This document shows positions 26,736-62,554 of a stretch of 64,000 nt of DNA, one piece after another. The stretch spans positions 4,629,441 to 4,693,440 of the forward strand of contig NC_092619.1 of the NCBI RefSeq assembly GCF_047663525.1, given 5' to 3'. This DNA is from Anas platyrhynchos (Eukaryota). The first letter of the stretch is position 1. Each line of letters starts with the position of its first letter. The notes beneath the pieces are model-generated. The model was not told the origin of the DNA, searched no databases, and saw nothing but the letters and a program-made list of their open reading frames with translations. The translations under genes were made by a program, and so were the position numbers.

Positions 26736-26737
26736 AC

Positions 26738-32050: not shown

Positions 32051-32309
32051 CAACAGAAGGACGTGCCTAGGACATGCCCAGGACACACAAGTCCCCACAC
32101 CATCACCTGCTCCCTGGGGCTTGGCACCACCAACACTGGGCTCTGCATCGGTCAGTGGGGCCACCTACCACAGATGTGCCAACAGTAACATCATCTAAAC
32201 CCAGCACCGCCCTCTGCGTCACCTCTGTGCCCCAAATCCTCCTCCTGCGTCCTCCCCACCATATCCACCATGTCCCTGCCCCACCATGCCCACAACCACA
32301 GGTGCTCAC

Positions 32310-32560: not shown

Positions 32561-32569
32561 CTGCATTCA

Positions 32570-33500
32570 CACCCACCTCATGGTGCTGCTGGGCTGGGAC
32601 GGCCGCTGGGGGCACTGGGAAGGGATTTGGAGGGCACTGGAAGCACTTGGAGGGTGTATGAAGGCATTAGGAGGGGCACTGGGAGCATTGGGAGTTTGGG
32701 GGCACTGGATGGGTATAAGAGACACCGGGAGCACTAGGATGGTGTGTCTGGGGACATTGGGAAGGTCTGGGGGAACTGAACAGGGGTTTGAACACACTGG
32801 AAGCAGATATATGGGATACTGGGAGCCCTGGGATGGACTGTGGAAGGTGACGGGGGGTACTGAAAGGGGGTCCAGGGTGCACTGGGAGCATGTCTGGGGC
32901 CACATGGGATACTGGGAGCACTGGAAAGCAGTGTGTGGGATACTGGGGTAGGTTATAGGAAGCACTGGGAAGGGAGCTGGAGGCACTAAGATGGATTTTG
33001 GGAGCACTGGGAGAGGGTCTGGGGATACTGGATTGGGATACGGGGGCACTGGAGGAATGTGGAACACTGGCAGGAGAACTGGGAGCACTGGGAGTGGGAG
33101 TGGAGGGCTATAGTGAGCTCGTGAGATTACTTGGTCTATAGGGAGTCCTGGCTGTTTTGGGGAACTACGGGGAGCTATGTGAATTACAGGAAGCTACTGA
33201 GGGCAATGGGGAGGACCTGAAGGCATCTGTGGGGGCCGCAGGGTGCTATAGAGGGCTGTGGGTGAGTGGGAAACGTTTATGTGGGTCTACAAAGGATTAC
33301 TGGGGGCTATAAGGAGCTGCAGGGATCTATGGAGAACTACAGAGTGCTGTAGGGGAGCCCTAGAAGTCTACAGGGAGCAGTAATGGGATTATGGGGAGCC
33401 ACAGAGAGCTAAAGGGGGCTATAAGGGGGCTATAGGAGACATGAAGGGCTATAGGAGGCCACAGGAAAATCAGCTACAGGGAGCTACGAGCTCCAGGGGA
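32570..33500. repeat. two adjacent minisatellites filling MVP intron 8: GGGCACTGGGAGCACTGG-like units (32570-33115) and GGAGCTATAGG / GGAGCTACAGG units (33115-33500)
   Basis: Clear tandem periodicity of about 20-25 bp. Confidence 0.7.
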
Positions 33501-33522
33501 GCTAGAGCAGCGGGGCAGGCAC

Positions 33523-33681
33523 CTTGCCAGTGCGGATGTCGCGCACGTAAATGCCCTCGTTGTCAGCTAGGGCCACAGCCTGGCGACGTTCCAGCACAGC
33601 CACCTCGGCGGGCGGCACGTACTCGAGGGGGCCCCGGGCCAGCCAGCGGTCACCTGCGCGCCGTGTCACCTCTGTCCCCTC
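33523..33681 (-). CDS. MVP: MVP exon 8 ([53 protein letters not shown])
   Basis: Acceptor catccccag; donor GTGCCT. Matches human ...[51 protein letters not shown]. Confidence 0.85.
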
Positions 33682-34154
33682 CTGGGGATGTGGGGATACC
33701 ATCAGCAACCAGCCTGGGGACGCAGGGACGCACGGACCCCTACCCAACCCCTGGCTGGGGACATGGGGACAGACGCACACCTCATGGCCCTCTGCTACCA
33801 GCCAGTCTGAAGGCATGGAGACAGAGAGCACCCCCACGGGCTGCCAGCTTGGGGACAGCACCCCCTCCCACTGTCCTCTGCCACCCACCTGGCTTGGAGA
33901 CCCAATGATAAAGACGGATGTCCCCACAAGTGTCCCCCGAGACCTCCATAACCCCCCAGACATCCCCCACATACCCACCTGCCCCCAGGCACTCGACTGT
34001 CCCCCACGACATCCAGCCACCAGCGGGTCCCCCAGTTGTCCCCTTTGTCCCCAAATCACTCCTGGTTGCCCCGGGCATCCCAGGCTCCCTGGACCCCCAG
34101 TTTCTCCCAGGTGCCTCCAGGTGATCCTGTAAGCCTGGGTGCCCCCTGGGTCAC

Positions 34155-34280
34155 CTCACTGGTGTCCTTGATCGTCTGGAGCGCCTGAAGCAGTAGCCCC
34201 TCATCCTCAGAGAGCACAAAGACATCCTGGATGCCATCCTGGAGCCGCTCGCCTGGTTGCAGAAAGAAGGACCTCTCCCC
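34155..34280 (-). CDS. MVP: MVP exon 7 ([42 protein letters not shown])
   Basis: Acceptor acatccccag; donor GTGACC. Matches human [44 protein letters not shown]. Confidence 0.85.
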
Positions 34281-34439
34281 CTGGGGATGTGGGAATGTGT
34301 CACCAGCAGGGCAAGGACGTGGCAACGTGGTGAGGACACGGGGCAGGAGCATGGGGATACGGTGAGACACAGTACAGAATATATGGAAGGGGACATTAGG
34401 GCCCCTCAAGGATTCCTTTGGGTCCCTGTGGACCACTTT

Positions 34440-34960
34440 TAAGACCTTCAGGGATGTCTACAGGTATGTCAGGGCCAACTTCAAGTCCCTGGGGACCAAC
34501 CATGGGCTGCTGTAGAAACTTAGCATCCCTCATCAACACATTTAGGTGTTAATTTAGGTGTTGTAGGGTGCTTTGGGACCACCATTGAGATATTTGGGAA
34601 TGCCTACATGTACATCAGGGCCACCCGTGGGCTCCTTGGGGGCACTCAGGGCACCTCGGGGACACCTCAGGGGTCATGCCAGGATCCCTCAGGGATAACT
34701 TTGGGACTTTAAGGGATGCCTCAGAGATGCATTAGGGTCCCTTGGGGCCACCTTTGAGACCTCTGGGGACACCTATACATATACCAGATTCCCTCAGAGC
34801 CATCTGTGTGGCCCCTGGGGCCACCCTCAGGTCCTGAGGTCCACACTTGGGACCCCTGGGGCACCTTACTGTCCCCCACTGATACATTAGGGGCACATTA
34901 TGTCTTAGAGCTGCTCAGGACCACACCTTTGATACCTGTGGGGAAGCTAAGGTCACATTA
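34440..34960. repeat. degenerate tandem repeats (CCTGGGGACC / CCTCAGGGAT units) in MVP intron 6
   Basis: Periodic ggg(g)acc / cctcag motifs. Confidence 0.55.
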
Positions 34961-34989
34961 GGTCACTTGCGAGTCCCTGGGGTGCCCAC

Positions 34990-35226
34990 CTTGATCACAC
35001 GTTGCTGGCCCAACTGGGGCTGCCCGTTGGGCCCCACAGGGTCGAGCACCACGCAGTACTGCCGGGGACCCAGCGTCGTCACCTGCACCTCAGCCACCAC
35101 CTCCTCGAACACCTCTGGGACGTAGGCCTCGCTCTGCTGCTGCGTCACCAGCCACTCCTCACCCGTGCGGCGCACCCGGCCCTGTGCATCCTCAAAGGTC
35201 CGTACGGCTCGCAGGTGCAGGGCTTT
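34990..35226 (-). CDS. MVP: MVP exon 6 ([79 protein letters not shown])
   Basis: Acceptor cccgtag; donor GTGGGC. Length 237 nt. Matches human [80 protein letters not shown]. Confidence 0.85.
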
Positions 35227-36130
35227 CTACGGGAGGGAGGGACAACAGTGGGTGGTGGGACACCAAAAGCTGGCCCCGCCAGGCCTTGTCACCTGTGTGG
35301 GCAAGGCGACAGGGTTATGGGACTTCAGACTCGTCCCATACGGTCCTTGTTATGTGCGGGTGAAGGGAAGACAGGGATATAGTGGATTGCAGCAGGGCTG
35401 GACCCTCTAGAGAGTCCTTGTCACCCACAGGTGCAGGGAAAAAGGGGACACAGTGGGCTCAGGGCAGGGGGAATGGGACCCTCAAACATATCCCCAAGGA
35501 GCCTCGTCACCTGCGGGTGCAGGGGGCACAGGGGGGTGACGGTACCCCACACCTATCCTGGAAGGTCACTTGCCAGCTTGGGTGCAAGAGAATAGCGACA
35601 CAGAACCCCCAAACCCATCCTGAAAGGTCCCTAACACCTGTCTGTGCCCAGAGCACGTAACAGGACCCCCAAATCAGGTCTTTGTTACCTATCAGTACAG
35701 CAGGAATGGGGTCATGGTGGGCTGGTGGGGACAGGATACCCGGAGGGTCCACATCACCCCCTGAGGCAGGGGGAACAAAGACAGCATAGCTGAGGGGGAC
35801 AGTACCCCTCACACAGTCCTCAACACCCATGGGTGCAGGGGGCATGGCAACATGGTGGGTTGGAAGGTCCCTCAGAGGGTTCTCATCACCCATGGGTGCA
35901 ATGGGGACAGTGCCATGATGGATCAGGGGGATAAGACCCTTCACCCACCCTGGAGGATCCTTGTCACACCCACGGTTGCAGGAGAATAGGTACACGGACC
36001 CCCAAACCCAGTCCAGAGGGACCTCCAGAGGCACCACAGGCATGGCTACACTACTGGCTCAGGTCCTGGAGAGTCCCTGTCATCTGCAGGGGCAGGGGAA
36101 ACCACGGGCAAGGGTCACGATGCCAGGTAC
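35227..36130. repeat. minisatellite of about 12 units of 65-80 bp filling MVP intron 5; unit derived from the exon-6 acceptor junction
   Basis: Units such as gtccttgtcacccacaggtgcagggaaaaaggggacacagtgggctcagg are homologous to ...ggtccgtacggctcgcaggtgcagggctttc|tacgggagggagggacaacagtgggtgg, which spans the exon 6 / intron 5 boundary at 35190-35260. Confidence 0.7.
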
Positions 36131-36225
36131 CTTGTCGGTGAGGACGTAGGCGTCCACAACGTCGACCACCTCCTCGTAGACACCGGGCAGGTAGGCACCC
36201 ACCCGCTTCACCAGCCACTCCTCCC
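36131..36225 (-). CDS. MVP: MVP exon 5 ([32 protein letters not shown])
   Basis: Acceptor tctgctcccag; donor GTACCT. Matches human [32 protein letters not shown]. Confidence 0.85.
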
Positions 36226-36239
36226 CTGGGAGCAGAGGG

Positions 36240-37220
36240 ATGGGGCTAAGGATGCTGCGGTGCTGGGCAGGGTGGGGACTGGGAGTCCCAGGGGGACTGG
36301 GATGGGATGCGTTTTGAGGGGACTGGGGCATATGCAGGTCCTAAGGGTGCTAAGCATCCTATGGATCTTAGGTGTCCTAAAGGTGCTGGGAGCAAAGGGC
36401 CCTAGGGGGCAGATGGAAGAATCCTAAGGGTGCTGGGGGTACTGGTAGTTATGGGAGCCCTGTGGGTGCTGGGAATCTTGAGGGGCTAGGGGCTAAGACA
36501 GGGTCCCACAGGTGCTATGGGAGAGGAGGGAGGTTATGGGGTTGGGCAGGATGGATGTGTTGGGCATCACAGGGGCGCAGTGGGGTCAGACAGGGATGCT
36601 GGAGGTGCTGTAGGGTGAGAGGGGGTGCTGGACGGTGGAATGGGAATGCGGGAGACCCCAGGCAAGCTGAGGGATGAGGCAAGTGTCCCAAAGTGTCCCA
36701 CACATGCCGCAGCGCCCAGGGGTGCTTCTGAATAACACAGAAATCCCATGGGTGTTAGGGGGTGACACAGGGGGTGACACAGGGCTCCCAGTGGTGCTGG
36801 AGGGGTCCCATGGGCGCTCAGGATGCTGGGAGTCCCAGGAGGGCTGTCAGACAACACAGAAGGTGTGTGCATGCTTAGAGGAGACACAAGGATTGCGGGG
36901 GTGCTTGGGGTCCCAGAAGTTCTGGGAGATGGGTTGGGGCGCTGCAGGCTCCAGGGGCACTCTCAGATGACCCGGAGCTCCCATGGGTGCTGAAGGGTGA
37001 CACGGGCGTCACAGAGGGGCTGGAGGGGGAGAAGAGGATCCCAGGGTATGGGGTGTGGTGTCTCAGGGCTGCCTTCAGGCAACACTGGGGTCCCATGGGT
37101 GCTGAGGGGGGGGACACCAGAGGCACAGGGTGACACTGAGCCAGCTAACACTGAGTGAGGGCTGAACCCAGGAAGCCACTGCGGCTACCAGGGAGCCCTG
37201 GAGTGTCACCGGGTGCAACG
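36240..37220. repeat. minisatellite filling MVP intron 4 (units around GGTCCCATGGGTGCTGAGGGGGTGACACAG)
   Basis: Many copies of gggtgctgg(g)ag ... tcccatgggtgct. Confidence 0.65.
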
Positions 37221-37239
37221 GGGTGTCCACGAGTGCTAC

Positions 37240-37371
37240 CTGTGACGCGGCGGATGCCCTGACGGTCGAGGCACTCCTTGCGTGCCCGCAGGCGGATGGC
37301 CTGGTTGTGCCCGATGACAGTGGCCTGCAGCGTCTCCACCACCTCCACCTCCTTGCGGGGGATGTAGGTAC
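37240..37371 (-). CDS. MVP: MVP exon 4 ([43 protein letters not shown])
   Basis: Acceptor tgcgtgcag; donor GTAGCA. Matches human [44 protein letters not shown]. Confidence 0.85.
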
Positions 37372-37452
37372 CTGCACGCAGGCAGCACCATCAGCCCCCA
37401 GCTCCCTGAGGTTTCCCCAGGGGGTCCTCAGGAAGGTGTCCCTGCTGCTCAC

Positions 37453-37576
37453 CAGGACCCTCGAAGAGCCACTCGTCGCCTGCTACGAACTTGTTGGAAT
37501 CCTCGTCCTCAAAGTCAAGCAGGGCCCGAAGGCGCAGGGCGGTGTCAGCCAGCACCACCTGCAGTGGGGTGACACC
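37453..37576 (-). CDS. MVP: MVP exon 3 ([41 protein letters not shown]-)
   Basis: Acceptor tgtccccag; donor GTGAGC. Matches human [42 protein letters not shown]. Intron 3 is only 81 bp. Confidence 0.85.
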
Positions 37577-37599
37577 CTGGGGACACAGGTGTCGGAAGA

Positions 37600-38600
37600 G
37601 AGTTGAGTGAGACAACGTGGGGGCATGGGCATCGTAGCGGAGGTGTGGCAGATGTGGAGGGTGAGAGGGATGGTTTCAGGGGTTGTCCTGGGGGCACAGT
37701 AGCAGACACGGGGACACAGAGGGGTCACTGCAGGAGACGTAGATGGGAAGTGTCACTGTGGACTAGGTGGGGACACAGGGTCACGACAGGGCTGTGAGAG
37801 TAAGGGGGGTACAAGGGTCCTTGCAGGGAAATGGTGGACATGGGGGTCACTGTGATGGACCTGAGTTTAACCCGGGGGACTGGGACAAAGGTTTTCACCA
37901 TGGGGGATGTGGGCGACAGGCTGGGGATGGGGACAGTACAGGGGCACGAGTGACACTTTGGCGACAGAACACACTGAAGGGATTGGAAACAATGCAGGGA
38001 CACCTTGGGGAGAGGTACACAGGCTCAGCGCAAGGACAAGGATGACACACTGAGGGGGGGGGGGTCTACAGGATAAATTCTGGGCCATGAGATGGCTAGA
38101 GCAGGTATGGAAGAGAACGGGGAACTATAGGGGCTATAGGAGCTGTGAGAAACAAGAGGGGGATTAGAGGAGCTCTAGGGGCTATGGGTAGCCATGGAAG
38201 GTTACGGAGATGTGTTACAGAGAGGGATTGTGGAGTCTATAGAAGTTACAGGAGACTGGGGGGTGGGAGAGTGGGAGGGAGCAGAGGAAGCACAGCGGTG
38301 CCAAATGAACTGTAGGAGCTCCAGGGGTGCTGAGGAGCCTGTAAAGAGCTGCAGGAATACCTGAGCAGGCAGCTGGAAGGATTACAGAAAAACCCAGTGG
38401 GTTACAGGAACTCTAAGAGAGCCATTGGTGAGCTAGAGTTGTTCCAGGGGTCATGAAGGGCTAAAATAGCTGAAGCAGCTATAGGGGACCACAGCAAACT
38501 GCAACTCAGCTATAACGGGCCACGGTGGGGCTAAGAGTTATAGAAGACTGTCATATGCTACAAGAGCTGGGGGGCTGTCTGTAACTACCAGGAAGGCTGC
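37600..38600. repeat. minisatellites in MVP intron 2 (GGGACACAGG/GTGACAC units 37600-38050; GGAGCTATAGG/GGGCTACAGG units 38090-38600)
   Basis: Tandem degenerate 10-25-bp units visible by eye. Confidence 0.65.
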
Positions 38601-38644
38601 AGGGGCCTGGGGGGGCACTGCAGGGAGGGCGGTGTTACAGGTAC

Positions 38645-38840
38645 CTGCTGGAGCTCCTCGCCGGGGTACAGGGGGAAGGGCTCCTGGGCCAGGCGGACGT
38701 CGAGGTCAGCGTGCCGCAGACGGACCTGTCCTGCGCCATCCACCAGCACAGCCCCCGTAGGGCTCCGGGCCACGGGGTTGAGCACCACGCAGTAGTGGCG
38801 GGGGGGCACCATCACCATGCGTTTGGGCGCAAACACCACC
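38645..38840 (-). CDS. MVP: MVP exon 2 ([65 protein letters not shown])
   Basis: Acceptor gtacccacag; donor GTACCT. Matches human [66 protein letters not shown]. Confidence 0.85.
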
Positions 38841-38859
38841 CTGTGGGTACCCCCACACT

Positions 38860-39300
38860 GCTCCCCTCAGCTCTACAGAGCCCCCAGGGCCCTATGGAAC
38901 CCCTCAAGTCCTCCACAGCCCCAGTCTAGCCCCACAGCCCTCCTATGGCCCTCTACAGCCTTATGGAACCAACTCGGTCCTATAGAGGTCCTACGATCCT
39001 ACAGAACCCTCAAAAAAACCCCAACAGCCCCACAGAGCCCCTGCAGCCCTGTACACCTTCCCCCCCCCCAAGGGCCCATGAAGTCCACATAGCCCTACAG
39101 AGACCCCCAACACCTCCCACTGTCCTAAAGAGCCCCCGCAGAGCTTCCTCAAACATCACTCACAGCCCTGTAAACCCAGATCACTCTGTAGCTACGTAAA
39201 TCCCCCCCACCCCATAGCACGAATGTTTTGTAGCCCTGCCAACCACAGCATGGCACTCCCACCCCACAGCTGCTCCCCCCCCCCCCGCCACAGCATCCAC
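38860..39300. repeat. GC-rich minisatellite (CCCCACAGCCC / CCTACAG family) in MVP intron 1; reverse complement of the GGAGCTATAGG family
   Basis: Repeated ccc(c)acagcc / cctatgg / ctacag motifs. Confidence 0.65.
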
Positions 39301-39340
39301 ATCTTTCGCTGAAGGAAGGAGACTGCCCCAAAGCACCCAC

Positions 39341-39459
39341 CTCTCGTGGTCCTGCCTGATGTAGGTGTGGGGCCCAACCTCCACACGAGTGACGTTACTG
39401 TTGAGGTCCAGCACGTGGACATAGTGGTAGGGGGGTATGCGGATCACAGGGTCTTCCAT
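39341..39459 (-). CDS. MVP: MVP first coding segment ([39 protein letters not shown]-), ATG at 39459..39457
   Basis: Matches the human MVP N-terminus [42 protein letters not shown]; donor GTGGGT at 39340..39335. The upstream non-coding exon and its acceptor are not resolved. Confidence 0.8.
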
Positions 39460-39469
39460 CGGGTAGGAG

Positions 39470-40030
39470 GCTTCGCCGTGCAACAGGAGACTTTGCCACG
39501 GGGGCGGGCGAGCTCGCTGTGGGACAGAACAGCCTGCTGTGGCTCACCGTGGGAGTGGCAGGCCTTGCCACAGGCCAGAAAAGCTTAACCTGGGGCAGGT
39601 GAAGTCCCTGGGGGGCAGATGAAGTTGCCATGGGGTGGATGAGATTGCCAGGGGAGCAGAAGACCTGGCCGTGGGGTAGGGGACCACGTCACGGCTCACT
39701 GAGAGACCTCGCCACAGGCTCCGCGGTGGGGTAAGAGACTACATCATGGGCCAGAAGGGCTTGCCAGGAGGCAGAGGAGCTCGCTGCGGGGCAAAAGGAG
39801 CTCTCCGGGGAGAAGACGAGCTCACACCGCGGGCTGGGCGACCTCGCCACGGGGAAGACGAGCTCCCCGTGCCGCGGGTAAGCTCGCCACGGGCTGCGGC
39901 ACCCCAAAATGGCCGGGACACCTCGCTCCGGGGCAGGAGAGCTTTCTGCCGGGCAGACAGCCCCGCCGCGGGGCAGGAGACCTCACCTGGGGCGGCGAAG
40001 GAGATGAGCTCGCTGGGGGGGGGGGGGTCA
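39470..40030. repeat. minisatellite, about 30-bp unit (GAGCTCGCCACGGGGCAGGAGA-like), roughly 18 copies, in the MVP 5' UTR intron
   Basis: Visible tandem periodicity of gagctcgc(c/t)(a/g)cggggc... units. Confidence 0.7.
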
Positions 40031-43284: not shown

Positions 43285-44050
43285 ATCATAGAATGGTTTG
43301 GGTTGGAGGCCACCTTAAAGATCATCTAGTTCTAGCCCTGTTCCCACTAGACCAGGTTGCTCAAAGCCCCATGCAACTTGGCCTTGAATGCTTCCAGGGA
43401 TGAGGCATCCACAGCTTCTCTGGGCAACCTGTGCCAGTGCCTCACCACCCTCAGGGTAAAGAATTCATTCAGAATTTGTCCAGAATCATCCAGATAATTA
43501 ATGAAGATGTTAAAAAGACTGGAGACAGTGTTGATCCCTGATCTACACAGCTAGTTACTAGCTTCCAATTAGACTTTCAGTTGCAGATCACAACCCTCAT
43601 GGTCCTTCTGTTCATCCATTTTTCTACCAACATCAGTTTCTCCATGTCTAAGCCATGCATTGTCAGCATCTCTATGAGGATGTTATGGGAGACGGTATGA
43701 AAAGCCTTACGTGTGGAGGTACACATGTAATACACGCCCCTTCAGCACCAAGCTAGTCTCCTCATTGTAATGGGCTATCAGTTTGGTTAAGCCTGATTTC
43801 CCCTTGGTAAATGCATGCTGAGTACTCCCAACTGCCTTCTCCTTCATGTGTTTGGAAGTGGCTTCCAGGAGAGTTTTCTCCCATCACCTTTCTGTGGATA
43901 GTGGGGCTGGCAGGCCTGTTATTTCCCTGGATCTTTCTTTCCTCTTTCCTATCTTGAAGATAGAACTGACATTTGCTCACTTCCAACCTTCAGAAACTTG
44001 TCCCAGCTGCTATAAGCTGGTCTCTTCAGTAAAGACTGAGGCAAAGAGGG
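43285..44050 (-). mobile_element. CR1 fragment (minus), 3' terminus plus RT region
   Basis: Starts cacagtatcatagaatggtttgggttggaggccaccttaaagatcatctagttc. The internal part is homologous to the CR1 RT region at 29600-29900. Confidence 0.75.
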
Positions 44051-48484: not shown

Positions 48485-48990
48485 AAACAAAGCAAATAGA
48501 ATCATAGAATGGTTTGGGTTGAAAGGGACCTTAAAGATCATCTAATTCCAACCCCTTGCCATGGACAGGGACACCTCCCAGTGGATCAGCTTGCTCAAAG
48601 CTCCATCTAACCTGGCCTTGAATGCTTCCAGGGAGAGGGCATCCATGACTTCTCTGGGCAACCTCATCAACTCCTTCAGCATGTCTTCTCAGGAGAGGTG
48701 CTCTAGTCCCTTGAGCATCTTTGTGGCCCTCCTCTGGACTTGTTCTAATAGGTCCAAGTCTTTCTTCTGCAGGAGGCCCCAAAGCTGAACACAAAGCTCC
48801 AGGAGGGGTCTCATGAGGGCAGAGTAGAGGGGGTGAATCACCTCCCTCGCCCCACTGGTGAGACTTCTTTTGATGTAGCCCAGGGTACAGTTGGCTTTTG
48901 GGGCTGCAAGCATACATTGCTGGCTAATGTTGAGCTTCTTATCAACCAGCACCCCCAGGTCCTTCTCATCAGGGCTGCAAAGCAAACCAA
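48485..48990 (-). mobile_element. CR1 3' fragment (minus), ORF2 C-terminus
   Basis: gaatcatagaatggtttgggttgaaagggaccttaaagatcatctaattccaacc. - strand ORF 48689..48985 reads [91 protein letters not shown]. Confidence 0.85.
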
Positions 48991-55356: not shown

Positions 55357-56718
55357 ATGGGGCAAATCAAGGGGATTCCCACACTGCAGACGCTGCGAGG
55401 GTATTGCTTTTCAGGATACAGTACCTCTAGCACAGACGTTTGTGGTGATGAGAACCTTCTCCTTCCCATCGCGGAATCTGAATCACATCAGCCCTCTGCA
55501 CTATGGTCAGCTCTGCCGTCAGCATGGCGACCTGGTGCCCATCCTTGCTCATCTCCACCGACAGCCAGTCCACACTCCTGCGAGTCTAGATGCGTGGGAG
55601 AGGCAGGAGGAGCTTTTGCAGCAGCTCTGGTGATACTGGTCTCCACCAGGCATGGTGCGCTCTCCAGGAAGTCGGTACACACCCAGACCGACTACCCGTT
55701 AAAAAATGCAGCAGTTCAGGTCACCGGGTGCGGGGAGCATCTGAGCCTGTTGCTGCCATCGGCGGGAGGCAGAGAAACTGCGTGCGTGAGGTGCGAGCAG
55801 CTGGATGACCTGGTCCACATGGTGGCGGAGCTCAAGGAGGAGGTGGAGAGGTTGAGGGATATCAGGGAGTGTGAGCGGGAGATAGACTGGTGGAGTAACT
55901 CCCTGCAGGGCCTCAAGGAGAGGTACCGAGGTGAGACACCCCAAATGGGGGTGGACCCCCTGTCCTGTCGCCGTCGGGCAGAGGGAGGGGATCTGGGAGT
56001 TGAGGAGGAATGGAAACAGGTCCCTGCTCGACATCGCAGGCGATGCCCTCCCCTTCCGGCCCCACCTTCCCAGGTGCCCTTACACAACAGGTTTGAGGCC
56101 CTGGAGCTCGACAGACCGGTAGCTGAGGAAGAGGTAGGAAGTGTTCCCAGGAGGATGCCTAGGGCGAGGAGGTCGACTCCACGCCTCAGGACTGCCTCCA
56201 TCAAGAAAGACAGGAGGGTTATTGTTGTTGGAGACTCTCTTCTTAGGGGAACAGAGGGCCCTATTTGTCGGCCTGACTCTACCCGTAGGGAAGTCTGCTG
56301 CCTCCCTTGGACCAGGGTCAGGGATGTTGCCAGGAAGCTTCCCAACCTGGTACGCCCCTCTGATTATTATCCTCTTTTGATAGTCCAGGCGGGCAGTGAC
56401 AACATTGAAGAGAGAAGCCTGAAGGCTATCAAAAGAGACTTTAGGGGGCTGGGACGGTTAGTGGATGGAGCGGGAGTGCAGGTGGTGTTTTCATCCATCC
56501 CTACGGTGGCAGGGAGGGGTACAGAGAGGACACGGAAAGCCCACCTGTTAAACACGTGGCTCCAGGGCTGGTGCCAACACAGAAATCTTGGGTTTTTCGA
56601 CCATGGGGCACTTCACTCAGCACCCGGCCTGATTGCCGCAGACGGGTCCCTATCTTTTAGGGGAAAAAGGGTCCTGGGCCACGAGCTGGCAGGGCTCATT
56701 GATAGGGCTTTAAACTAG
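55357..56718 (+). CDS. CR1 ORF1 (esterase/SGNH-like domain plus N-terminal zinc-knuckle-like motif), apparently intact reading frame
   Basis: 453-codon uninterrupted ORF. The true start Met may be internal, because the N-terminal 100 codons could be in-frame 5' UTR. Confidence 0.55.
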   Translation: MGQIKGIPTLQTLRGYCFSGYSTSSTDVCGDENLLLPIAESESHQPSALWSALPSAWRPGAHPCSSPPTASPHSCESRCVGEAGGAFAAALVILVSTRHGALSRKSVHTQTDYPLKNAAVQVTGCGEHLSLLLPSAGGRETACVRCEQLDDLVHMVAELKEEVERLRDIRECEREIDWWSNSLQGLKERYRGETPQMGVDPLSCRRRAEGGDLGVEEEWKQVPARHRRRCPPLPAPPSQVPLHNRFEALELDRPVAEEEVGSVPRRMPRARRSTPRLRTASIKKDRRVIVVGDSLLRGTEGPICRPDSTRREVCCLPWTRVRDVARKLPNLVRPSDYYPLLIVQAGSDNIEERSLKAIKRDFRGLGRLVDGAGVQVVFSSIPTVAGRGTERTRKAHLLNTWLQGWCQHRNLGFFDHGALHSAPGLIAADGSLSFRGKRVLGHELAGLIDRALN

Positions 56719-56759
56719 GTAAGAAGGGGGATGGGGCTGAAGCAAGGATTGTTGGGGCT

Positions 56760-57617
56760 GTGCCAGGGGGAACAATGGCAAGGCCGGAGGATAGGGCAAT
56801 GGCCCAGCTGAAGTGCATCTACACCAATGCACGCAGCATGGGCAACAAACAGGAGGAGCTGGAAGCCATCGTGCTGCAGGCAGGCTACGACTTGGTTGCC
56901 ATCATGGAGACGTGGTGGGACCAGTCTCATGACTGGAGTGCTGCTATGCCTGGCTATAAGCTCTTCAGAAGGGACAGGCAGCACAGAAGGGGTGGCGGTG
57001 TAGCTCTCTATATTAGAGAGTCTTTTGATGTTGTAGAACTCGAGGCTGGGAACGACAAGGTCGAGTCCCTTTGGGTTAGGATCGGCAGGGACAACAAGGC
57101 TAGTGTCCTGGTCGGGGTCTGCTATAGACTGCCGAACCAGGATGAGGAGACGGATGAGGAGTTCTACAGGCAGCTGACAGAAGTTGCAAAATCTTCAGCA
57201 CTTGTTCTCGTGGGGAACTTCAACTTCCCTGACATATCCTGGAAGCACAACACAGCCCAGAGAAAGCAGTCTAGGAGGTTTCTGGAGAGCGTGGAAGATA
57301 GCTTCCTGACGCAGCTGGTTAGTGAACCTACCAGGGGTGGTGCCCTGCTAGACCTTCTCTTCACAAACAGAGAAGGACTGGTGGAGGATGTGATTGTTGG
57401 GAGCTGTCTTGGGCAGAGTGACCATGAAATGGTGGAGTTCACTATTCTTGGCGAGACCAGGAAGGGGACCAGTAAAACCACTGTATTGGACTTTCGGAGG
57501 GCTGACTTTGAGCTGCTCAGGACATTAGTTGGTGGAGTTCCTTGGGAGGCGGTTCTGAAGGGCAGAGGGGTCCAGGAAGGCTGGGCGCTCTTTAAGAGGG
57601 AAATCTTAATGGCGTAG
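56760..57617 (+). CDS. CR1 ORF2 N-terminal part (apurinic-endonuclease-like domain), open frame of 285 codons, then a frameshift
   Basis: Conserved CR1 endonuclease motifs are present. The reading frame shifts after 57617 while homology to CR1 ORF2 continues for about 150 bp. Confidence 0.6.
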   Translation: MPGGTMARPEDRAMAQLKCIYTNARSMGNKQEELEAIVLQAGYDLVAIMETWWDQSHDWSAAMPGYKLFRRDRQHRRGGGVALYIRESFDVVELEAGNDKVESLWVRIGRDNKASVLVGVCYRLPNQDEETDEEFYRQLTEVAKSSALVLVGNFNFPDISWKHNTAQRKQSRRFLESVEDSFLTQLVSEPTRGGALLDLLFTNREGLVEDVIVGSCLGQSDHEMVEFTILGETRKGTSKTTVLDFRRADFELLRTLVGGVPWEAVLKGRGVQEGWALFKREILMA

Positions 57618-59655
57618 GAACGGTCTGTCCCCATGTGCCCAAAGATGAGCCAGCAGGGAAGAAGACCAGCCTGGCTCAACAGAGAACTGTGGCTTGAGCT
57701 TAGGAGAAAAAAGAGGGTTTATTATCTTTGGAAGGACTATAAGGATGTAGTGAGGCTGTGCAGGGACACACTGGTGTGGTAGTGGAGGGGCACATCCTGG
57801 AGCACCTGGCATGCTGCGGTTCCCTCGCTGCCCTGGGGACAGGCTGGAGCCCAGAGGCAGTGGCAGTCCTCTGGGAGCAGCCTGACAGCCGGGTGGTCAC
57901 TTTCCTTTGGAGAAATCTGATGGCAGGGCAGAGAGCAAGGAGAGCTCCCCAGTGACCCTGAGACAGAGTGGTTTCCAGCCCATGCTTGCCTCCTCATGCA
58001 GAACAGGGAAGCCAGATGTCCCATATCTTGTTTTCCTCCCCTGCAGATCACGTTGAATATTAGCTTTGGAAATTTACCAAAGAATAGGCAGTCAACTGGA
58101 AGATTTCATGAAATGAAATGTTTATGTTTTTTAACAGTGGCATATCTCTCCCCTCTTCCACAAACATTTATTTTTAGATATCATTAAACCAGCAGATGGG
58201 ATCTCCCTGAAGACCACTTTTAATAATGTCACTTTGTTTTTAAATATAATAAATAATGCAACACTGATAAGCTAATTCAGCTATCTGGCAAGTAGTGCAA
58301 GAAGCAGAAGCAGCCAAAATGAAAATCTTCCAGTTGACTGCTTGCTCCAGGATGTGCTCCTCCTCTACCATACCAGGGCTGCCCCCCTCCATGGGCTCTG
58401 CTGACTGCCAATGCTGGAGGGAGCCCAGGCTGCCCCACGTCCTGCTGCAACCTCCTCCTGCTCAGGCCCTGTCTGGAAGGACCGTGCTGCCTGAATGGGC
58501 TCCTTGTCCCACGGGCCCTGGGCATACACAGCTTATAAGAGATGCTTTGGAGTCAAACCTCTCTTCCCTGTCCAGAGAAAATTTGCTCCCGCAATTAGGT
58601 CTGAGCAGCTGCCCGGGGACAAGTGCCTGCCTCATCGCGTCCCCTCTGAATGGCCTCATCCTGCTCAGGGACAGGGCTAGCCCCTGCTGGGGCGAGGGGC
58701 ATTGCAGGGACACTGCCTGGGAACAAGGCCTTTGGGGAGACTTGGCTGAGCCCCATGTGGGAATGGAAGGGGAGCTGGAGCCTTGCTGGGGATGGGGCAC
58801 TGGCACCCGCCACGTGGGGGTCAGCTCTGCAGGGAAGGACTGGGCCCAGGTGTCCAGGAGGGCATGGTGCCCCCAGACAGTGGCAAGGCATGGACCAGGG
58901 CAGGGCTTGTTCCCTTGTGCTGTCTGTCCTCCCTCGGGGGCCATGGCTGGAGACTGGGACCAGTTTGGGGCCTGCAGTAACTTGGAGATGGTCTGGGCTG
59001 GAGCTGTGCTCTTCGACCGACCCCAGCAGCTCCTGCAAGCAGAGTCCTCATCCCCTGGTGCCCAGCATTCACCAGTGCTCCTCACGGCCAGTGCCTCCCA
59101 GTACCCTGATCACCCTCTGGACCTCAAGTTCTCAGTCACCCGGCTGTCCCCATTGCCCATGCCCCCCAGCTGTCCTCCTACCTTCCCAGTGTCCCCTAAT
59201 GCCAGTGTCCCCAGTGCCTGAAGAAGAGGAGTCAGTCTCAGCGTGCCATTCACTCAAGGGACTGCAGAGGGGTCAGAAACAACTCTGCTTAGAGTCCCTT
59301 AATTTGAGGCTGCATCATTTCTGGGGGAGTCCTGGGGAGTAAGCCTGGCCTGGAAGGTGAGGGGCACTGGGAGACAGGGAGATGTGGCTTTAGGGGCTGT
59401 TGGAGGATGGTTTCTTGCTGGGGAACTCACTGCAGGGTGTCTGACCACCCCCTCGCCACCCCCTGATGCCCGGAGCCGTCCCTGTGGAGCTGCCCTGTGC
59501 AGGAAGCTGGCCTGGTGCCACAGAAGGTGGCTGGGTGAGTGGCGGAGGTGTGGGTCAGTCTCTGCCAGCGGTGAGCTCACTGCCAGGGCTGGTACATGCC
59601 AAGCGTGGCTTTGCCCCTGGGCTCTCGGGGCGGGGTCAGTGGGGAGTCCTGCGAG

Positions 59656-59662
59656 AGATAAA
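59656..59662 (+). promoter_or_regulatory. TATA-like element (GATAAAT) with an upstream GC box (GGGGCGGGG at about 59628-59636), 56 nt upstream of the candidate peptide-gene ATG
   Basis: gcgagagataaatcttgctcc; the GC box lies about 20-25 bp upstream of it. Confidence 0.4.
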
Positions 59663-59717
59663 TCTTGCTCCTCACTTTCTCCAGCCTCATCCGGGACTGC
59701 GTAGACCACGGAGGAAG

Positions 59718-59783
59718 ATGAAGATCGCCCTGCTCAGCATGGCCCTGCTCCTCGCCATGCTATGCCTCCCAGCAGATGCTCTG
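59718..59783 (+). CDS. candidate novel secreted prepropeptide gene, exon 1 (signal peptide [21 protein letters not shown]|L), phase 0
   Basis: ATG in reasonable Kozak context (gaagATGa); classic n-region, hydrophobic core and AxA cleavage site; perfect donor GTGAGC at 59784. Confidence 0.55.
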
Positions 59784-60636
59784 GTGAGCCCCAGTGCTAT
59801 GGGGATGGGTTTCATGCTATGGGCAGCTCTTGGGGAGGAGACCCCACTGACCGGGGGCACTGCGCCCTCCCTGACACCTAGACTTTGGCAAAACCTCCAT
59901 GAAGTGTCCAGGTGATCCCTCCACTCCTGGTCAGGTGTGTGGGATGCCCAAAGAGTCTGGAGATCTCTCTCCAGAGACCTCTGGGGACCCCTCCTAAGCC
60001 CACCGCCCCAACGCCTTTGGTCCCCACCAAGGTGTCCCTTTCCCTGGATCTCCTCCATGTCCTGTCTAGGCTCCCCAGTGCCGTACCTTTCATCTTTCCC
60101 AATGCCTTTCTTTCATTCTTTCCTCTCAGTCCTCTGCCTTTCAGCTAATCCATTGCTGTGGTGTCCCCTTCCTTTCACCCCCACTTCCAAATACCCCCCC
60201 AGCAGTCCTCCCAGTCCCCTCGTTTTGGTCCACCTCAAGCCTCTTCCTTCAGCCCACACCAATCACGTCACTTGAAGTCTCCACATTCGCTCTATTTGAA
60301 TTCCTTATCCCCTGACTTGCATCCCACACGGTCCCATAACTTCAGCACCCCCAGCCCAGTAGTCTCTTGGGGTCTGCAAATTCCCTCTGTTTGAATCCCC
60401 TCTGTGCCCTGTCTTTTGGTCCCCACATCCTTGTCTCCATCCCCACCCGAGGTCCCTGCATCAACAGCTATTCCAGATGAAGCTGGGGAGCAACGGGTCT
60501 GTGGGGAGCAGAAGGGATTTTCCCTTGCAGACCGAGGGGAAGCTACGCAGTAGGGGTGACTGGGGACACCTGTGCCCCCTTCATCCTTCCACATCAAGCA
60601 CCAATCCAGACTGACCCCCTCATTCTCCTTTCCTAG

Positions 60637-60684
60637 TTCCTGAAAGACTCTGAGTTTGCAGCAAGTGGAGGTTTTGATCTGGAA
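60637..60684 (+). CDS. candidate prepropeptide gene, exon 2 ([16 protein letters not shown]), phase 0 to 0
   Basis: Acceptor cattctcctttcctag; donor GTGAGT at 60685. In frame with exon 1. Confidence 0.5.
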
Positions 60685-60824
60685 GTGAGTATCGGGGTGG
60701 CCTTGGGCTGGAGCCAGTCTTGAGAACTGCGGGGCCATTTGCCTCCCCCGTGCCCTGCTGTCACCTGCTGGGTTGAATTCATCCCGGCGTCCACTGAGGT
60801 CTCACAATCTCTCTCCTGCTGCAG

Positions 60825-60923
60825 CTGAAGTTTCTGCGAGGGAAGAGGGCTCTGCAGCCTGTGCCTGTCGAGGTGGTGGCAGCAGTGCGCAAGAAACGCC
60901 TGGCTGCAGATCTCTATGCCTAG
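60825..60923 (+). CDS. candidate prepropeptide gene, exon 3 ([32 protein letters not shown])
   Basis: Acceptor tctctcctgctgcag; in-frame TAG at 60921-60923. The GKR and KKR motifs are prohormone-convertase / amidation-type sites. The full product is 70 aa. Confidence 0.5.
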
Positions 60924-61069
60924 GTGAGCAGCACTGGTGTGTCGCTGGCCCCGCAAAGGATCCTTTACTCCAGGAAACCCCAGAGGCCTCTGTGCTGGGC
61001 AGAACTTGTGTATGGCTGGGGGCAATAGAGGGCATTAGCCATGATCTGTCTCGGGATCATGGAATCACA

Positions 61070-61910
61070 GAATGTTTTGGGTTGGAGGGGACCCTAAAGG
61101 TCATCTAGTTTCAAGCCCCCTGCCATGTGCAGGGACACCTCCCAGCAGACCAGGTTGCCCAAAGCCCCATCCAAGCTGGCCTGGAGCACTTCCAGGTATG
61201 AGGCATCCACCACGTCTCTGGGCAACCTGCGCCAGAGCCTCACCACCCTCCGAGTGAAGAATTTCTTCTGAGTATCTAATCTAAACCTACCCTCTTTTAG
61301 TTTAAAACCATTACTCCTTGTCCTATCACTACACTCGCAGAGAAAGAGCCCCCCCAGAGCTTTTCTGCAGGCCCCCTTTAAGTACTGAGAGGCCACAATG
61401 AGGTGTCCCTGGCGCCTCCTCTTCTCCACGCTGGACAACCCCAGCTCCCTCAGCCTGTCTTCACTCCTGCCCTTTGATCATCGTTGTGGCCCTCCTCTAG
61501 ACTTGTTCTAATAGGTCCATGTCCTTCTGGTGCTGGGGGCCCCAGAGCCGACCACAGGGCTCCAGGTGGGGTCTCACCAGAGCAGAGCAGAGCAGAGGGG
61601 GAGAATCACCTTCCTTGCCCTGCTGGCTACGCTGCTTTTGATGCAGACCAGGGTACAGTTGCCTTTTGGGGCTGCAGGTGCACATTGCTGGCTCACGTCA
61701 AGCTTCTCGTCAACCAGCACCCCGAGGTCCTTCTCCTCAGGGCTGTTCTCAATCTGTTCTTCACCTGGCCTGTGTTTGTCCTTGGGACTGCCCCAGCCCA
61801 GATGCAGGACCTTGCACTTGGCCTTGTTGAACTTTGCGGCTGGACAGAACCGTCCCTGGGCCTTATGCTCAGTGGGCTGGATGGACCCAGAGGCTTAGCA
61901 TGCAGTGTAG
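61070..61910 (-). mobile_element. CR1 3' portion (minus), ORF2 C-terminus reaching the element terminus
   Basis: - strand ORF 61094..61438 reads ...SDRTRSNGFKLKEGRFRLDTQKKFFTRRVVRLWRRLPRDVVDASYLEVLQASLDGALGNLVCWEVSLHMAGGLKLDDL. Terminus at atcacagaatgttttgggttggaggggaccc. The region 61440-61900 continues into the CR1 RT C-terminal region. Confidence 0.85.
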
Positions 61911-62554
61911 ACAGGGGTTCTGATGCCATACAGACCCCCAGGATCCCCATAGGACTGGGTCCAGAGGTCTACGGGCACCCCAGGGTAGCTGCACGCTGGG
62001 CAAGGGGCTCTGGGTGCCGTACGGACCCCAAGAGAGCCGAGTCCTGCTGGGGGTGTATTGGGGGCTGGGGGTGGGCTCCGATTCCCTGCTTCATCCTCTG
62101 ATCTTTTGAGAGACCTGGTGGGGACGAGGCCTCTCTCGTGTCCCCACGGATGCTGGGCGATCGCGTCTTGCGCTTTGTCTTTCAGGCCCACAGATTGTGA
62201 TGAACCCCCATCCTGTCCCCCCCCAGTTACATGAAGAGACGGTCATCCCTGGATCGTGCTGCCAGATCCTCTGGATGATATGGCCCATTTCCCCTCCGTC
62301 TGCAATAAACACCTTCAGCAAAGCTACCATATGTGTGCTGGTGTGTGCCCCTCTCCTCTGCTGGTGACTGGAATGCCTGGGTCCTTTCTGGCAGCACCAC
62401 TGCAGTGAGCAGACTGGCTGAGGGGAAAGCTGGGAGCCCAGAGGCCTGTGTTTCTCTGTTGGGCAGATTCCCCCTCCCACGCTTCCCACCTGCCATATGC
62501 CCCCAGTTTAGGGCAGATCGGGGCAAAGTGAAGCATGGGACTAAGGGTGGATTC

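What the first reader, a model, noticed from the sequence alone, without database searches (positions are those of the whole stretch)
59620..60925. Compact three-exon gene encoding a 70-aa secreted prepropeptide with amidation-type and dibasic processing sites; no family recognised
Three consecutive segments are open and mutually in frame, each in phase 0. Exon 1 (59718-59783) encodes a textbook signal peptide, [21 protein letters not shown]|L, and ends at a consensus GTGAGC donor. Exon 2 (60637-60684) has a pyrimidine-rich acceptor and a GTGAGT donor. Exon 3 (60825-60923) has a strong acceptor, tctctcctgctgcag, and ends exactly at TAG. The predicted product is [70 protein letters not shown]. 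It contains ...KFLR-G-KR, which is a Gly amidation donor followed by a dibasic cleavage site, and a second KKR site. This is the architecture of a neuropeptide or hormone precursor, and it would yield a C-terminally amidated peptide of about 22 aa plus 14-aa and 7-aa peptides. A TATA-like GATAAAT at 59656 and a GC box sit at the expected distance upstream. The product has no cysteines and does not match any peptide family I can recall. I checked RFamides, NMU/NMS, PAMP/ADM, ghrelin/motilin, apolipoproteins, defensins and cathelicidins.
Basis: seen in the sequence. Interest (0 to 1): 0.8.

Follow-up and report, generated by a model that had tools for sequence, protein, structure and literature searches.

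The report
Uncharacterised duck secreted-peptide precursor gene
The predicted small gene is real and spliced exactly as described; it encodes a 70-residue secreted peptide precursor whose cleavage/amidation site is shared with a turkey relative, but it is only an automatically annotated "uncharacterized" gene with no known family or function.

Summary
The three coding segments, their splice sites and the 70-aa product are confirmed to the base. A duck RNA-derived contig (Logan SRR7345748) joins 59783>60637 and 60684>60825. NCBI already models the gene as uncharacterized LOC101790701 (Anas platyrhynchos).

Corrections: the gene has at least five exons. The "first" exon is entered through an acceptor at 59684/59685 from alternative non-coding 5' exons, one of them 20 kb upstream, head-to-head with MVP. 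The TAG is followed by a used donor leading to a 3'UTR exon (62186-~62320, AATAAA).

The only homolog found is turkey LOC116217797. It has the same exon sizes, GT-AG sites, 70-aa length, TATA-like box and polyA exon. Conservation is concentrated in SG.(F/Y)D(L/I).LK(F/L)LRGKR (dN/dS about 0.1-0.25). The signal peptide evolves neutrally but stays hydrophobic. The 24-aa tail, including the duck KKR site, is not conserved.

Best reading: a fast-evolving Galloanserae prepropeptide cut at a furin-type RGKR site. It yields a ~22-aa N-terminal peptide, possibly ending in Arg-amide. No Pfam, Rfam or literature match. The PAMP/adrenomedullin resemblance is architectural only. Function, tissue and wider distribution are untested.

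The parts
39746..39877 (+). 3' part of the distal non-coding (or alternatively coding) first exon. It ends at the donor CGG|GTAAGC (39878). It contains the in-frame ATG (39746, context atcATGg) that NCBI isoform X1 (125 aa) uses. The 5' limit is unknown. It overlaps the 5' exon of MVP on the opposite strand.
   Evidence: L001 block 39331-39877 is joined to 59685. P0003 sequence. Coordinates checked.
59466..59534 (+). Alternative proximal 5' exon of NCBI isoform X2 (104 aa). It runs from the ATG at 59466 to the donor TGG|GTGAGT at 59535. The exon start is unknown.
   Evidence: P0002 sequence is reproduced by joining 59466-59534 to 59685.
59657..59663 (+). TATA-like GATAAAT, 55 nt before the ATG. 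It is conserved in turkey as AATAAAT. It would place a start site at about 59685-59690, the same spot as the acceptor.
   Evidence: Turkey L003 3159-3165.
59685..59783 (+). ATG exon. It follows the acceptor ttctccag|, has 33 nt of 5'UTR, the ATG at 59718 (context gaagATGa), then 22 codons, with the donor CTG|GTGAGC.
59718..59780 (+). Predicted signal peptide [21 protein letters not shown], with cleavage after Ala21 (A-x-A).
   Evidence: Hydrophobic core kept in turkey (mean Kyte-Doolittle 2.8 vs 2.7).
60383..60636 (+). Conserved 3' part of intron 1 (~68% identity to turkey, as high as the exons). It contains GGGATTTTCC (60514-60523). Its function is unknown, and it may be regulatory.
60637..60684 (+). 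16-codon exon [16 protein letters not shown], phase 0-0. The turkey exon has the same length.
60825..60923 (+). Last coding exon, LKFLRGKR...LYA plus TAG (60921-60923), followed directly by a used donor GTGAGC.
60837..60848 (+). RGKR. This is a furin-type R-X-K-R cleavage site with Gly at P3 as a possible amide donor. It is conserved in turkey, and nucleotide conservation of the exon stops right after it.
60888..60899 (+). RKKR, a second furin-type site. It is duck-specific and absent in turkey.
62186..62320 (+). 3'UTR exon (acceptor ctttgtctttcag|) with AATAAA at 62304-62309. The RNA contig ends at about 62319. It is homologous to the turkey last exon, which holds the turkey stop codon.

Best explanation
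This is a genuine, spliced, protein-coding gene of the mallard (NCBI LOC101790701, uncharacterized). It lies between MVP (head-to-head, 20 kb upstream) and a DDX25-like helicase gene. It encodes a 70-aa secretory prepropeptide.

Shown:
- the exon-intron structure and its use in RNA;
- a turkey homolog with the same architecture;
- conservation focused on the 15 residues ending in LK(F/L)LR-G-K-R.

Inferred mechanism:
1. Translation starts at ATG 59718.
2. The signal peptide is removed after Ala21.
3. The 49-aa propeptide is cut after Arg46 by furin or another proprotein convertase (R-G-K-R fits R-X-K/R-R).
4. A carboxypeptidase removes Lys-Arg.
5. If peptidylglycine alpha-amidating monooxygenase is present, Gly44 is converted to a C-terminal amide. 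The product would be [24 protein letters not shown]2 (2501.33 Da) in duck and GLLDDLEEG(T/A)SGAYDIALKLLR-NH2 in turkey.

The N-terminal peptide, whose C-terminal half is predicted to be an amphipathic helix, is the likely functional product. The 24-aa tail is an unconstrained spacer. The receptor or target is unknown. The gene is probably driven by a CpG-poor TATA-type proximal promoter, plus read-in from a distal exon at the MVP CpG island.
For: - Exact splicing in an RNA-derived contig.
- NCBI models in A. platyrhynchos and A. acuta.
- Turkey homolog P0008 / LOC116217797 found by exhaustive HMMER (E=5e-4) and verified at the genomic level. It has 66- and 48-nt exons of identical length, GT-AG at homologous positions, a 70-aa ORF, and a homologous TATA-like box and polyA exon.
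- dN/dS is 0.25 for codons 32-46 and 0.10 for LK(F/L)LRGKR, against about 1.0 for the signal peptide.
- Nucleotide conservation of the last coding exon ends exactly after GKR.
- The neutral simulation gives a joint P of 0.005.
- No indel occurs in 138 coding nt, while flanks carry about 1 per 23 nt.
- The upstream extension is interrupted by TAG in 7 of 8 turkey contigs, which supports the MK... start.
- A-x-A sits at -3/-1 in both species, and two R-X-[KR]-R sites are very unlikely in shuffles of the duck propeptide (P=1.6e-4).
- The turkey unit contains no MVP, so the gene has its own promoter.
Against: - Overall dN/dS for codons 1-46 is 0.81, and amino-acid identity (24/46) is only marginally above the neutral expectation (p=0.055).
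- The selection signal rests on one species pair and about 15 codons.
- Only one RNA contig carrying the ORF is in the collection. It is an unstranded chimera with MVP mRNA.
- In-frame upstream ATGs exist in both known duck 5' structures, one of them in a strong context.
- One turkey tandem copy reads GKW instead of GKR.
- No homolog was detected outside duck and turkey.
- There are no tissue, ribosome-profiling or peptide data.
- AlphaFold confidence is low (pLDDT 58).
Confidence: 0.55

Rival explanations
1. The transcript is functionally non-coding. It would be a divergent or bidirectional transcript from the MVP CpG-island promoter, plus local transcription, whose exons happen to carry a 70-codon ORF. 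The ORF would be translated poorly or not at all, and its product would have no function.
For: - The distal first exon overlaps the MVP 5' exon in antisense.
- Overall dN/dS is 0.81 and the signal peptide's is about 1.0.
- Exon nucleotide identity (~65%) barely exceeds that of a conserved intron block (68%).
- The C-terminal third is scrambled by frame-shifting indels.
- Very few RNA contigs exist, and no homolog was found beyond Galloanserae.
Against: - Frame, length (70 aa), hydrophobic N-terminus, A-x-A site and RGKR are all kept over the duck-turkey split (joint neutral P about 0.005, before counting the absence of indels).
- The synonymous bias falls exactly at the processing motif.
- The turkey copy lies in a different neighbourhood without MVP, yet keeps the TATA-like box, exons and polyA exon.
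Confidence: 0.2
2. The conserved acidic N-terminal segment is only a propiece. The variable C-terminal peptide released after RGKR is the effector, evolving fast as in host-defence peptide precursors (conserved prepro-region, hypervariable mature peptide).
For: - The architecture is signal, then acidic spacer, then K-R, then variable tail.
- The duck tail is mildly cationic (+2).
- The gene is tandemly amplified in turkey, as immune gene families often are.
- A conserved kB-like decamer lies in intron 1.
Against: - The turkey tail is acidic (-3), proline-rich and non-amphipathic (muH 0.07).
- The tails differ by frame-shifting indels rather than by substitutions.
- The signal peptide is not conserved at sequence level, unlike in amphibian antimicrobial precursors.
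- kB-like motifs are no more frequent than chance in the window (13 vs 17 expected).
Confidence: 0.1
3. The protein is made from an upstream ATG (125-aa or 104-aa NCBI isoforms). The hydrophobic stretch then acts as an internal signal-anchor, giving a small type II membrane protein rather than a secreted peptide.
For: - Both duck 5' structures offer in-frame ATGs with no intervening stop. The one at 39746 is in a strong context (atcATGg).
- Basic residues (RRPRRK) precede the hydrophobic segment.
Against: - The extensions come from a degenerate ~20-nt repeat antisense to the MVP 5' region, or from promoter-proximal sequence.
- They are not conserved in turkey, where 7 of 8 contigs have an in-frame TAG 12 codons before the Met.
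- Annotation pipelines commonly pick the longest ORF (my inference).
- The 5' end of the distal exon is not established, because L001 is an unstranded merge with MVP mRNA.
Confidence: 0.08
4. It is a highly divergent member of the adrenomedullin family that has kept only the PAMP-like N-terminal peptide.
For: - The layouts match (signal peptide ending ..AD.A, a ~20-aa peptide, R-G-K-R), and the short strings MK, L..SEF and RGKR are shared.
- hhalign of duck+turkey against an 8-species ADM N-terminal profile gives P=2.5e-4, probability 43%.
Against: - BLASTP finds nothing.
- With the signal peptide and GKR removed, peptide-to-PAMP scores are within shuffled controls (p=0.16-0.96).
- There is no Cys pair or ADM domain, and Pfam PF00214 is not hit.
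- Bird and turtle ADM precursors themselves have AKR or ARR, not GKR, after PAMP.
Confidence: 0.04

Closest known systems
NCBI gene models LOC101790701 (Anas platyrhynchos XP_038027502.1 / XP_038027503.1; identical protein XP_068521657.1 in Anas acuta) and LOC116217797 (Meleagris gallopavo XP_031413606-8)
   Same: It is the same locus. The 70 aa are the C-terminal part of the duck models, and the turkey X3 model contains the homologous 70 aa.
   Different: The automated models start at upstream ATGs (104, 125 and 114 aa) or retain introns (turkey X1 and X2). This hides the N-terminal signal peptide. All are labelled 'uncharacterized', and no paper in the library mentions either identifier.
PAMP (proadrenomedullin N-terminal 20 peptide) within preproadrenomedullin
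   Same: It works alike on paper. A ~20-22-aa peptide follows the signal peptide directly and is released at R-G-K-R, with Gly as amide donor in mammals.
   Different: There is no demonstrable sequence homology in the peptide itself. There is no downstream adrenomedullin domain or Cys ring. Here the peptide is split over three exons.
GnRH- and vasotocin-type prohormones (signal peptide, hormone, G-K-R, then a poorly conserved associated peptide). This comparison rests on my own knowledge.
   Same: The order of elements is the same, and so is the conservation pattern: the peptide plus GKR is conserved while the C-terminal associated peptide is free to vary.
   Different: There is no sequence similarity. 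The candidate peptide is longer (22 aa), acidic to neutral, and much less conserved in its N-terminal half. Neuroendocrine expression is not shown.

Membership tests
Convertase-processed secretory peptide precursors (prohormone / neuropeptide type; a functional class, not a sequence family) | Cleavable N-terminal signal peptide | tested here: met
   The n/h/c layout is MK + 15 hydrophobic residues + PADA or QAQA, with Ala at -3 and -1 in duck and turkey. This is a heuristic only; no SignalP was available.
Convertase-processed secretory peptide precursors (prohormone / neuropeptide type; a functional class, not a sequence family) | Conserved basic cleavage site flanking the candidate peptide | tested here: met
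   R-G-K-R is identical in duck and turkey, with synonymous differences in the codons. One turkey tandem copy reads GKW.
Convertase-processed secretory peptide precursors (prohormone / neuropeptide type; a functional class, not a sequence family) | Gly immediately before the basic pair (amide donor) | tested here: met
   Gly44 is present in both species. With only two lineages this has little power.
Convertase-processed secretory peptide precursors (prohormone / neuropeptide type; a functional class, not a sequence family) | Purifying selection on the mature peptide | tested here: inconclusive
   dN/dS is 0.25 for codons 32-46 and 0.10 for codons 39-46, but 0.66 over the whole peptide. Counts are tiny (5.5 non-synonymous vs 5.5 synonymous differences).
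Convertase-processed secretory peptide precursors (prohormone / neuropeptide type; a functional class, not a sequence family) | Processed (amidated) peptide detectable; expression in secretory or neuroendocrine cells | not testable with these tools
   Only one RNA contig of unknown tissue exists (SRR7345748), and the run is not cited in the paper library.
Adrenomedullin / calcitonin family (Pfam PF00214) including PAMP | ADM/CGRP-type domain with an intramolecular disulfide ring and C-terminal amide | tested here: not met
   There is no Pfam hit at E<=10. The only Cys lies in the signal peptide.
Adrenomedullin / calcitonin family (Pfam PF00214) including PAMP | Sequence similarity of the N-terminal peptide to PAMP | tested here: not met
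   Peptide-only alignment scores do not exceed shuffles (p=0.16-0.96). The profile hit is carried by the signal peptide and RGKR.
Avian host-defence peptide precursors (beta-defensins, cathelicidins) and amphibian-type antimicrobial precursors | Cys-rich defensin or cathelin domain, or a cationic amphipathic C-terminal mature peptide | tested here: not met
   There are no Cys residues outside the signal peptide. Pfam finds nothing. The turkey tail has net charge -3 and muH 0.07.
Small-RNA host gene / known lncRNA | Intron- or exon-embedded RNA matching a curated family | tested here: not met
   An Rfam scan of 59300-62450 at E<=1 gave only three sub-threshold chance hits.
   Within the window only 61059-61832 (the intron between the last coding exon and the 3'UTR exon, CR1-like) is repeated. 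The exons are single-copy. No avian repeat library was available.

The most novel reading that the evidence does not exclude
The gene founds a previously unrecognised avian peptide-hormone family, present at least in Galloanserae. Its product would be a ~22-residue peptide ending in -Leu-Lys-(Phe/Leu)-Leu-Arg-amide that signals through an unidentified receptor. It would have been missed because automated models bury the signal peptide behind spurious N-terminal extensions, and because the precursor evolves too fast for homology searches.
Probability: 0.25. Interest if true: 0.75.

Novelty: new member of a known kind. Interest (0 to 1): 0.5.

Why it matters
Catalogues of avian prohormones are built mostly by homology to mammalian genes, so lineage-restricted, fast-evolving peptide genes escape them. 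Here the gene structure, the start codon and the one conserved processing site can now be stated precisely. That turns an "uncharacterized LOC" into a directly testable candidate, with a defined peptide of predicted mass 2501.33 Da in duck. If the peptide exists, it would add a new ligand to bird physiology in two major poultry species. If it does not, the locus is a clean example of a conserved-looking small ORF in a promoter-divergent transcript, and a caution for small-ORF annotation.

Tried and rejected
1. Pfam on the 70-, 104- and opposite-strand ORFs found nothing.
2. Paralogs or repeats in the window: none for the exons.
3. snoRNA/miRNA host-gene idea for the conserved intron block: Rfam was negative, C/D-box-like strings in duck are not conserved in turkey, and the block is not conserved as protein in any frame.
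4. More orthologs: the exhaustive HMMER search gave only turkey. The word-indexed profile search gave only turkey-derived ORFs. Two metagenome scans (protein-pattern and codon-degenerate DNA pattern) gave 393 and more than 120 chance matches, none related. The absence of chicken or Neoaves hits is not evidence of absence, because bird genomes are not searchable here and short exon ORFs are rarely called.
5. Literature: LOC101790701, LOC116217797, SRR7345748 and the motif strings gave 0 papers.
6. ADM/PAMP homology was rejected as unproven.
7. SCPP-type gene was considered from memory, because of the all-phase-0 small exons and the signal-peptide exon ending just after the cleavage site. I rejected it because there is no S-x-E motif, the turkey last coding intron is phase 1, and the locus is MVP/DDX25-linked.
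8. Structure prediction was uninformative (pLDDT 58, all helix), so no fold search was run.
9. Looking up P0003 and P0008 in assemblies to get the A. acuta and reference turkey loci directly returned 'not on record'. The turkey locus was reached through P0009, P0011 and P0012 instead.
Full report
**1. The observation**

Every splice signal is at the stated base.

The word-indexed protein search returned two exact matches. One is a 70-aa ORF on a Logan contig from run SRR7345748 (P0001). The other is NCBI 'uncharacterized protein LOC101790701 isoform X2 [Anas platyrhynchos]' (P0002, 104 aa). So the window is mallard DNA and the gene is already modelled, but only automatically.

**2. RNA evidence and the true gene structure**

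The Logan contig L001 (2789 nt) carries the ORF without interruption. Mapped on the window, its 3' part falls into four blocks: 59684/5-59783, 60637-60684, 60825-60923 and 62186-62319. A model built from these coordinates reproduces the contig except for SNPs and a 1-nt length difference in a C-run of the 3'UTR.

Two features were missed:

- **The ATG exon is internal.** It begins at 59685, behind the acceptor ttctccag|. In L001 it is joined to sequence ending at 39877, where the genome reads CGG|GTAAGC. NCBI isoform X2 instead joins 59466-59534 (donor GTGAGT) to the same acceptor.
- **The TAG is not the end of the transcript.** It is the last triplet of its exon. The following GTGAGC is a used donor, and a fourth intron of 1262 nt containing CR1-like repeat copies leads to a 3'UTR exon. 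That exon (62186-~62320) has AATAAA at 62304-62309.

The 5' two-thirds of L001 are the spliced exons of the major vault protein gene on the opposite strand (Pfam Vault, MVP_shoulder). The contig is thus an unstranded merge of two head-to-head transcripts that overlap around 39.3-39.9 kb. The 5' limit of the distal exon is unknown.

**3. Which start codon?**

NCBI isoform X1 (P0003, 125 aa; an identical protein is annotated in Anas acuta) starts at ATG 39746 in the distal exon. X2 starts at 59466. Both ATGs are in frame with 59718 and would place 55 or 34 residues in front of the hydrophobic segment.

These extensions are not conserved. The X1 extension is read from a degenerate ~20-nt repeat antisense to the MVP 5' region. 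In turkey, 7 of 8 independent contigs carry a TAG 12 codons upstream of the homologous Met, where the reference has TTG. I therefore take ATG 59718 (gaagATGa) as the functional start. Only initiation profiling can settle this.

**4. Relatives**

Pfam finds nothing. An exhaustive HMMER scan of 1.84 billion representatives gave, beyond self-hits and an old chimeric duck model (EOA93340.1, 'DDX25 partial', which fuses two exons of this gene to the downstream helicase), one real homolog. This is turkey 'uncharacterized protein LOC116217797 isoform X3' (P0008, E=5e-4).

From the homologous Met both proteins are exactly 70 aa and align without gaps:

- duck: [21 protein letters not shown]|[25 protein letters not shown]|[24 protein letters not shown]
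- turkey: MKAVAVTVLLLLASMCLQAQA|GLLDDLEEGTSGAYDIALKLLRGKR|NSHPSPPLLPELPDPVALDLPIQG

A profile search then found genomic ORFs that begin with the turkey signal-peptide exon, lying on 'metagenome' scaffolds and Logan contigs. These contigs are 99.5-99.7% identical to the turkey reference contig ADDD02292259.1, so they are turkey host DNA.

**5. The orthologous locus**

In turkey (L003) the gene has these features:

- a TATA-like AATAAAT about 56 nt before the ATG (duck has GATAAAT 55 nt before);
- a 66-nt signal-peptide coding segment with a GT donor;
- a 48-nt exon flanked by ccccag| and |gtgagt;
- an exon starting CTT AAG TTG CTA CGA GGG AAG CGG behind ctgcag|;
- a last exon homologous to the duck 3'UTR exon, with AATAAA.

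The turkey stop lies two bases into that last exon, and the last coding intron is phase 1. The duck stop is the last triplet of the preceding exon.

Local alignment finds four conserved blocks:

- the signal-peptide exon;
- a 327-nt block made of the last 254 nt of intron 1 plus the 48-nt exon;
- the acceptor plus the first 24 nt of the last coding exon, stopping exactly after GKR;
- the 3'UTR exon.

In turkey the gene sits in a ~10.58-kb unit, together with a CCDC81-like gene, that is present at least twice in tandem. One copy reads GKW at the processing site. MVP is not in that unit, so the turkey gene must have its own promoter. The proximal promoter regions are CpG-poor (observed/expected 0.28 in duck and 0.43 in turkey), unlike the distal exon region (0.64).

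**6. Is it coding?**

Nei-Gojobori estimates between duck and turkey:

| Codons | Region | dN/dS |
|---|---|---|
| 1-46 | prepro-core | 0.81 |
| 1-21 | signal peptide | 1.0 |
| 22-46 | candidate peptide + GKR | 0.66 |
| 32-46 | conserved core | 0.25 |
| 39-46 | LK(F/L)LRGKR | 0.10 (3 synonymous, 1 Phe/Leu change) |

After residue 46 the two sequences cannot be aligned in frame. The nucleotide alignment needs several 1-4-nt gaps there.

I ran a substitution-only simulation that places the observed 46 differences at random on the duck sequence:

| Outcome | Fraction of runs |
|---|---|
| Frame stays open | 40% |
| Hydrophobic core kept | 15% |
| Gly + dibasic kept at 44-46 | 10% |
| All three together | 0.5% |
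| Amino-acid identity >= 24/46 | 5.5% |

In addition, the first 138 coding nt need no indel. By my count, aligned non-coding sequence around them has about 32 gaps in about 734 nt. That gives a Poisson P(0) of about 0.003, or 0.04 with the lowest local rate.

Together with the conserved exon lengths and splice sites, this favours a translated ORF under constraint on its frame, its secretory N-terminus and its processing motif. Constraint elsewhere is very weak. The evidence rests on a single species pair.

**7. Mechanism**

Both N-termini have the n/h/c layout of a signal peptide, with Ala at -3 and -1. R-G-K-R matches the furin and proprotein-convertase consensus R-X-K/R-R (established knowledge). 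In shuffles of the duck propeptide, at least one such site occurs in 3.5% of cases and two in 0.016%.

After cleavage and carboxypeptidase trimming, the product would end in ...LK(F/L)LR-Gly. That is a substrate for amidation if PAM is co-expressed (inference).

The candidate peptides are neutral to acidic (net charge 0 in duck, -2 in turkey). Their C-terminal halves are moderately amphipathic (muH 0.45-0.55). AlphaFold predicts helices only, at low confidence. The tails are not cationic-amphipathic (the turkey tail has charge -3 and muH 0.07), which argues against an antimicrobial-type effector.

The most likely functional product is therefore the N-terminal ~22-mer. Its target is unknown.

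**8. Comparison with known systems**

The layout is that of PAMP in preproadrenomedullin, and of GnRH- or vasotocin-type precursors: signal, peptide, GKR, then a variable associated peptide.

I noticed a faint resemblance to the ADM N-terminus, so I tested it:

- BLASTP finds nothing.
- hhalign against human ADM gives P=0.05.
- hhalign against a profile of eight mammalian, bird and turtle ADM N-termini gives P=2.5e-4 with probability 43%.
- Once the signal peptide and GKR are excluded, scores do not exceed shuffles (p=0.16-0.96).
- There is no ADM domain.

So it works like PAMP on paper, but membership of the ADM family is not supported. Rfam, repeat and opposite-strand explanations were all negative.

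**9. Verdict**

The interpretation as a secreted, convertase-processed prepropeptide is the best-supported reading (about 0.55). Amidation and a hormone or neuropeptide role are plausible but untested, and the second cleavage site is a duck peculiarity.

The gene is an annotated but uncharacterised, fast-evolving gene known so far only from Anas and Meleagris. It is a new member of a well-known kind of gene rather than a new kind of system.

Noticed in passing
window 26737-39877 (- strand gene) and 39331-39877 overlap: The major vault protein gene (MVP; Pfam Vault and MVP_shoulder; ATG at 39459-39457 on the - strand) lies head-to-head with this gene. The Logan contig L001 merges MVP mRNA and the small gene's mRNA into one unstranded contig. 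That implies their 5' exons overlap in antisense around 39.3-39.9 kb.
   Followed up: partly
window ~39460-39900 (TRF call: 39611-39660, period 20): A degenerate ~20-nt tandem repeat (…GAGCTCGCCACGGGG…-like units) fills the MVP 5' region. Read on the + strand, it supplies the Arg/Gly-rich in-frame N-terminal extension of NCBI isoform X1.
   Followed up: partly
window 60383-60636 (turkey L003 3534-3780): The last 254 nt of intron 1 are as conserved between duck and turkey (~68%) as the exons. The block is not an Rfam family and is not conserved as protein. Its longest perfect run, GGGATTTTCCCTT, contains a kB-like decamer (60514-60523). Such decamers are not enriched in the window (13 vs 17 expected).
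   Followed up: partly
L004 (turkey, 10605 nt) and L010 (ADDD02292259.1): In turkey the gene lies in a ~10.58-kb unit with a CCDC81-like gene (Pfam HU-CCDC81_euk_2) on the opposite strand. The unit is present at least twice in tandem. The copy at the start of L004 reads LKLLRGKW (CGG>TGG) instead of GKR.
   Followed up: partly
L003-L009 vs L010, 12 codons upstream of the turkey Met: Seven of eight turkey contigs have TAG where the reference has TTG, which truncates the N-terminal extension used in the NCBI turkey models. There is also a Thr/Ala difference at residue 31 of the precursor.
   Followed up: yes
L002 10001-15311 (old duck assembly KB746838.1); corresponds to window 59718 to about 65.0 kb: GenBank EOA93340.1, 'ATP-dependent RNA helicase DDX25, partial', is a chimeric model that fuses the first two coding exons of this gene to helicase exons. 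Those exons lie just beyond the window end (about 64.5-65.0 kb).
   Followed up: partly
window 55357-57617 (+), 61059-61832, and similar copies at 21783-22570, 48496-48977, 6755-7211, 43285-43473: These look like CR1-type LINE pieces (my reading from typical CR1 ORF2 C-terminal sequence). The 56760-57617 ORF has an endonuclease/reverse-transcriptase-type domain. One fragment sits inside the intron between the stop-codon exon and the 3'UTR exon.
   Followed up: partly
window 9649-9981 (+): This ORF contains an exon of medium-chain acyl-CoA dehydrogenase (ACADM; PDB 3mdd, E=1e-24). The AT-rich stretch from 2-22 kb is probably the ACADM gene, tail-to-tail with MVP.
   Followed up: partly
proteins P0127-P0133 (bird and turtle pro-adrenomedullins): In the bird and turtle ADM precursors retrieved, PAMP is followed by A-K-R or A-R-R rather than the mammalian G-K-R. 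Sauropsid PAMP may therefore not be C-terminally amidated.
   Followed up: no
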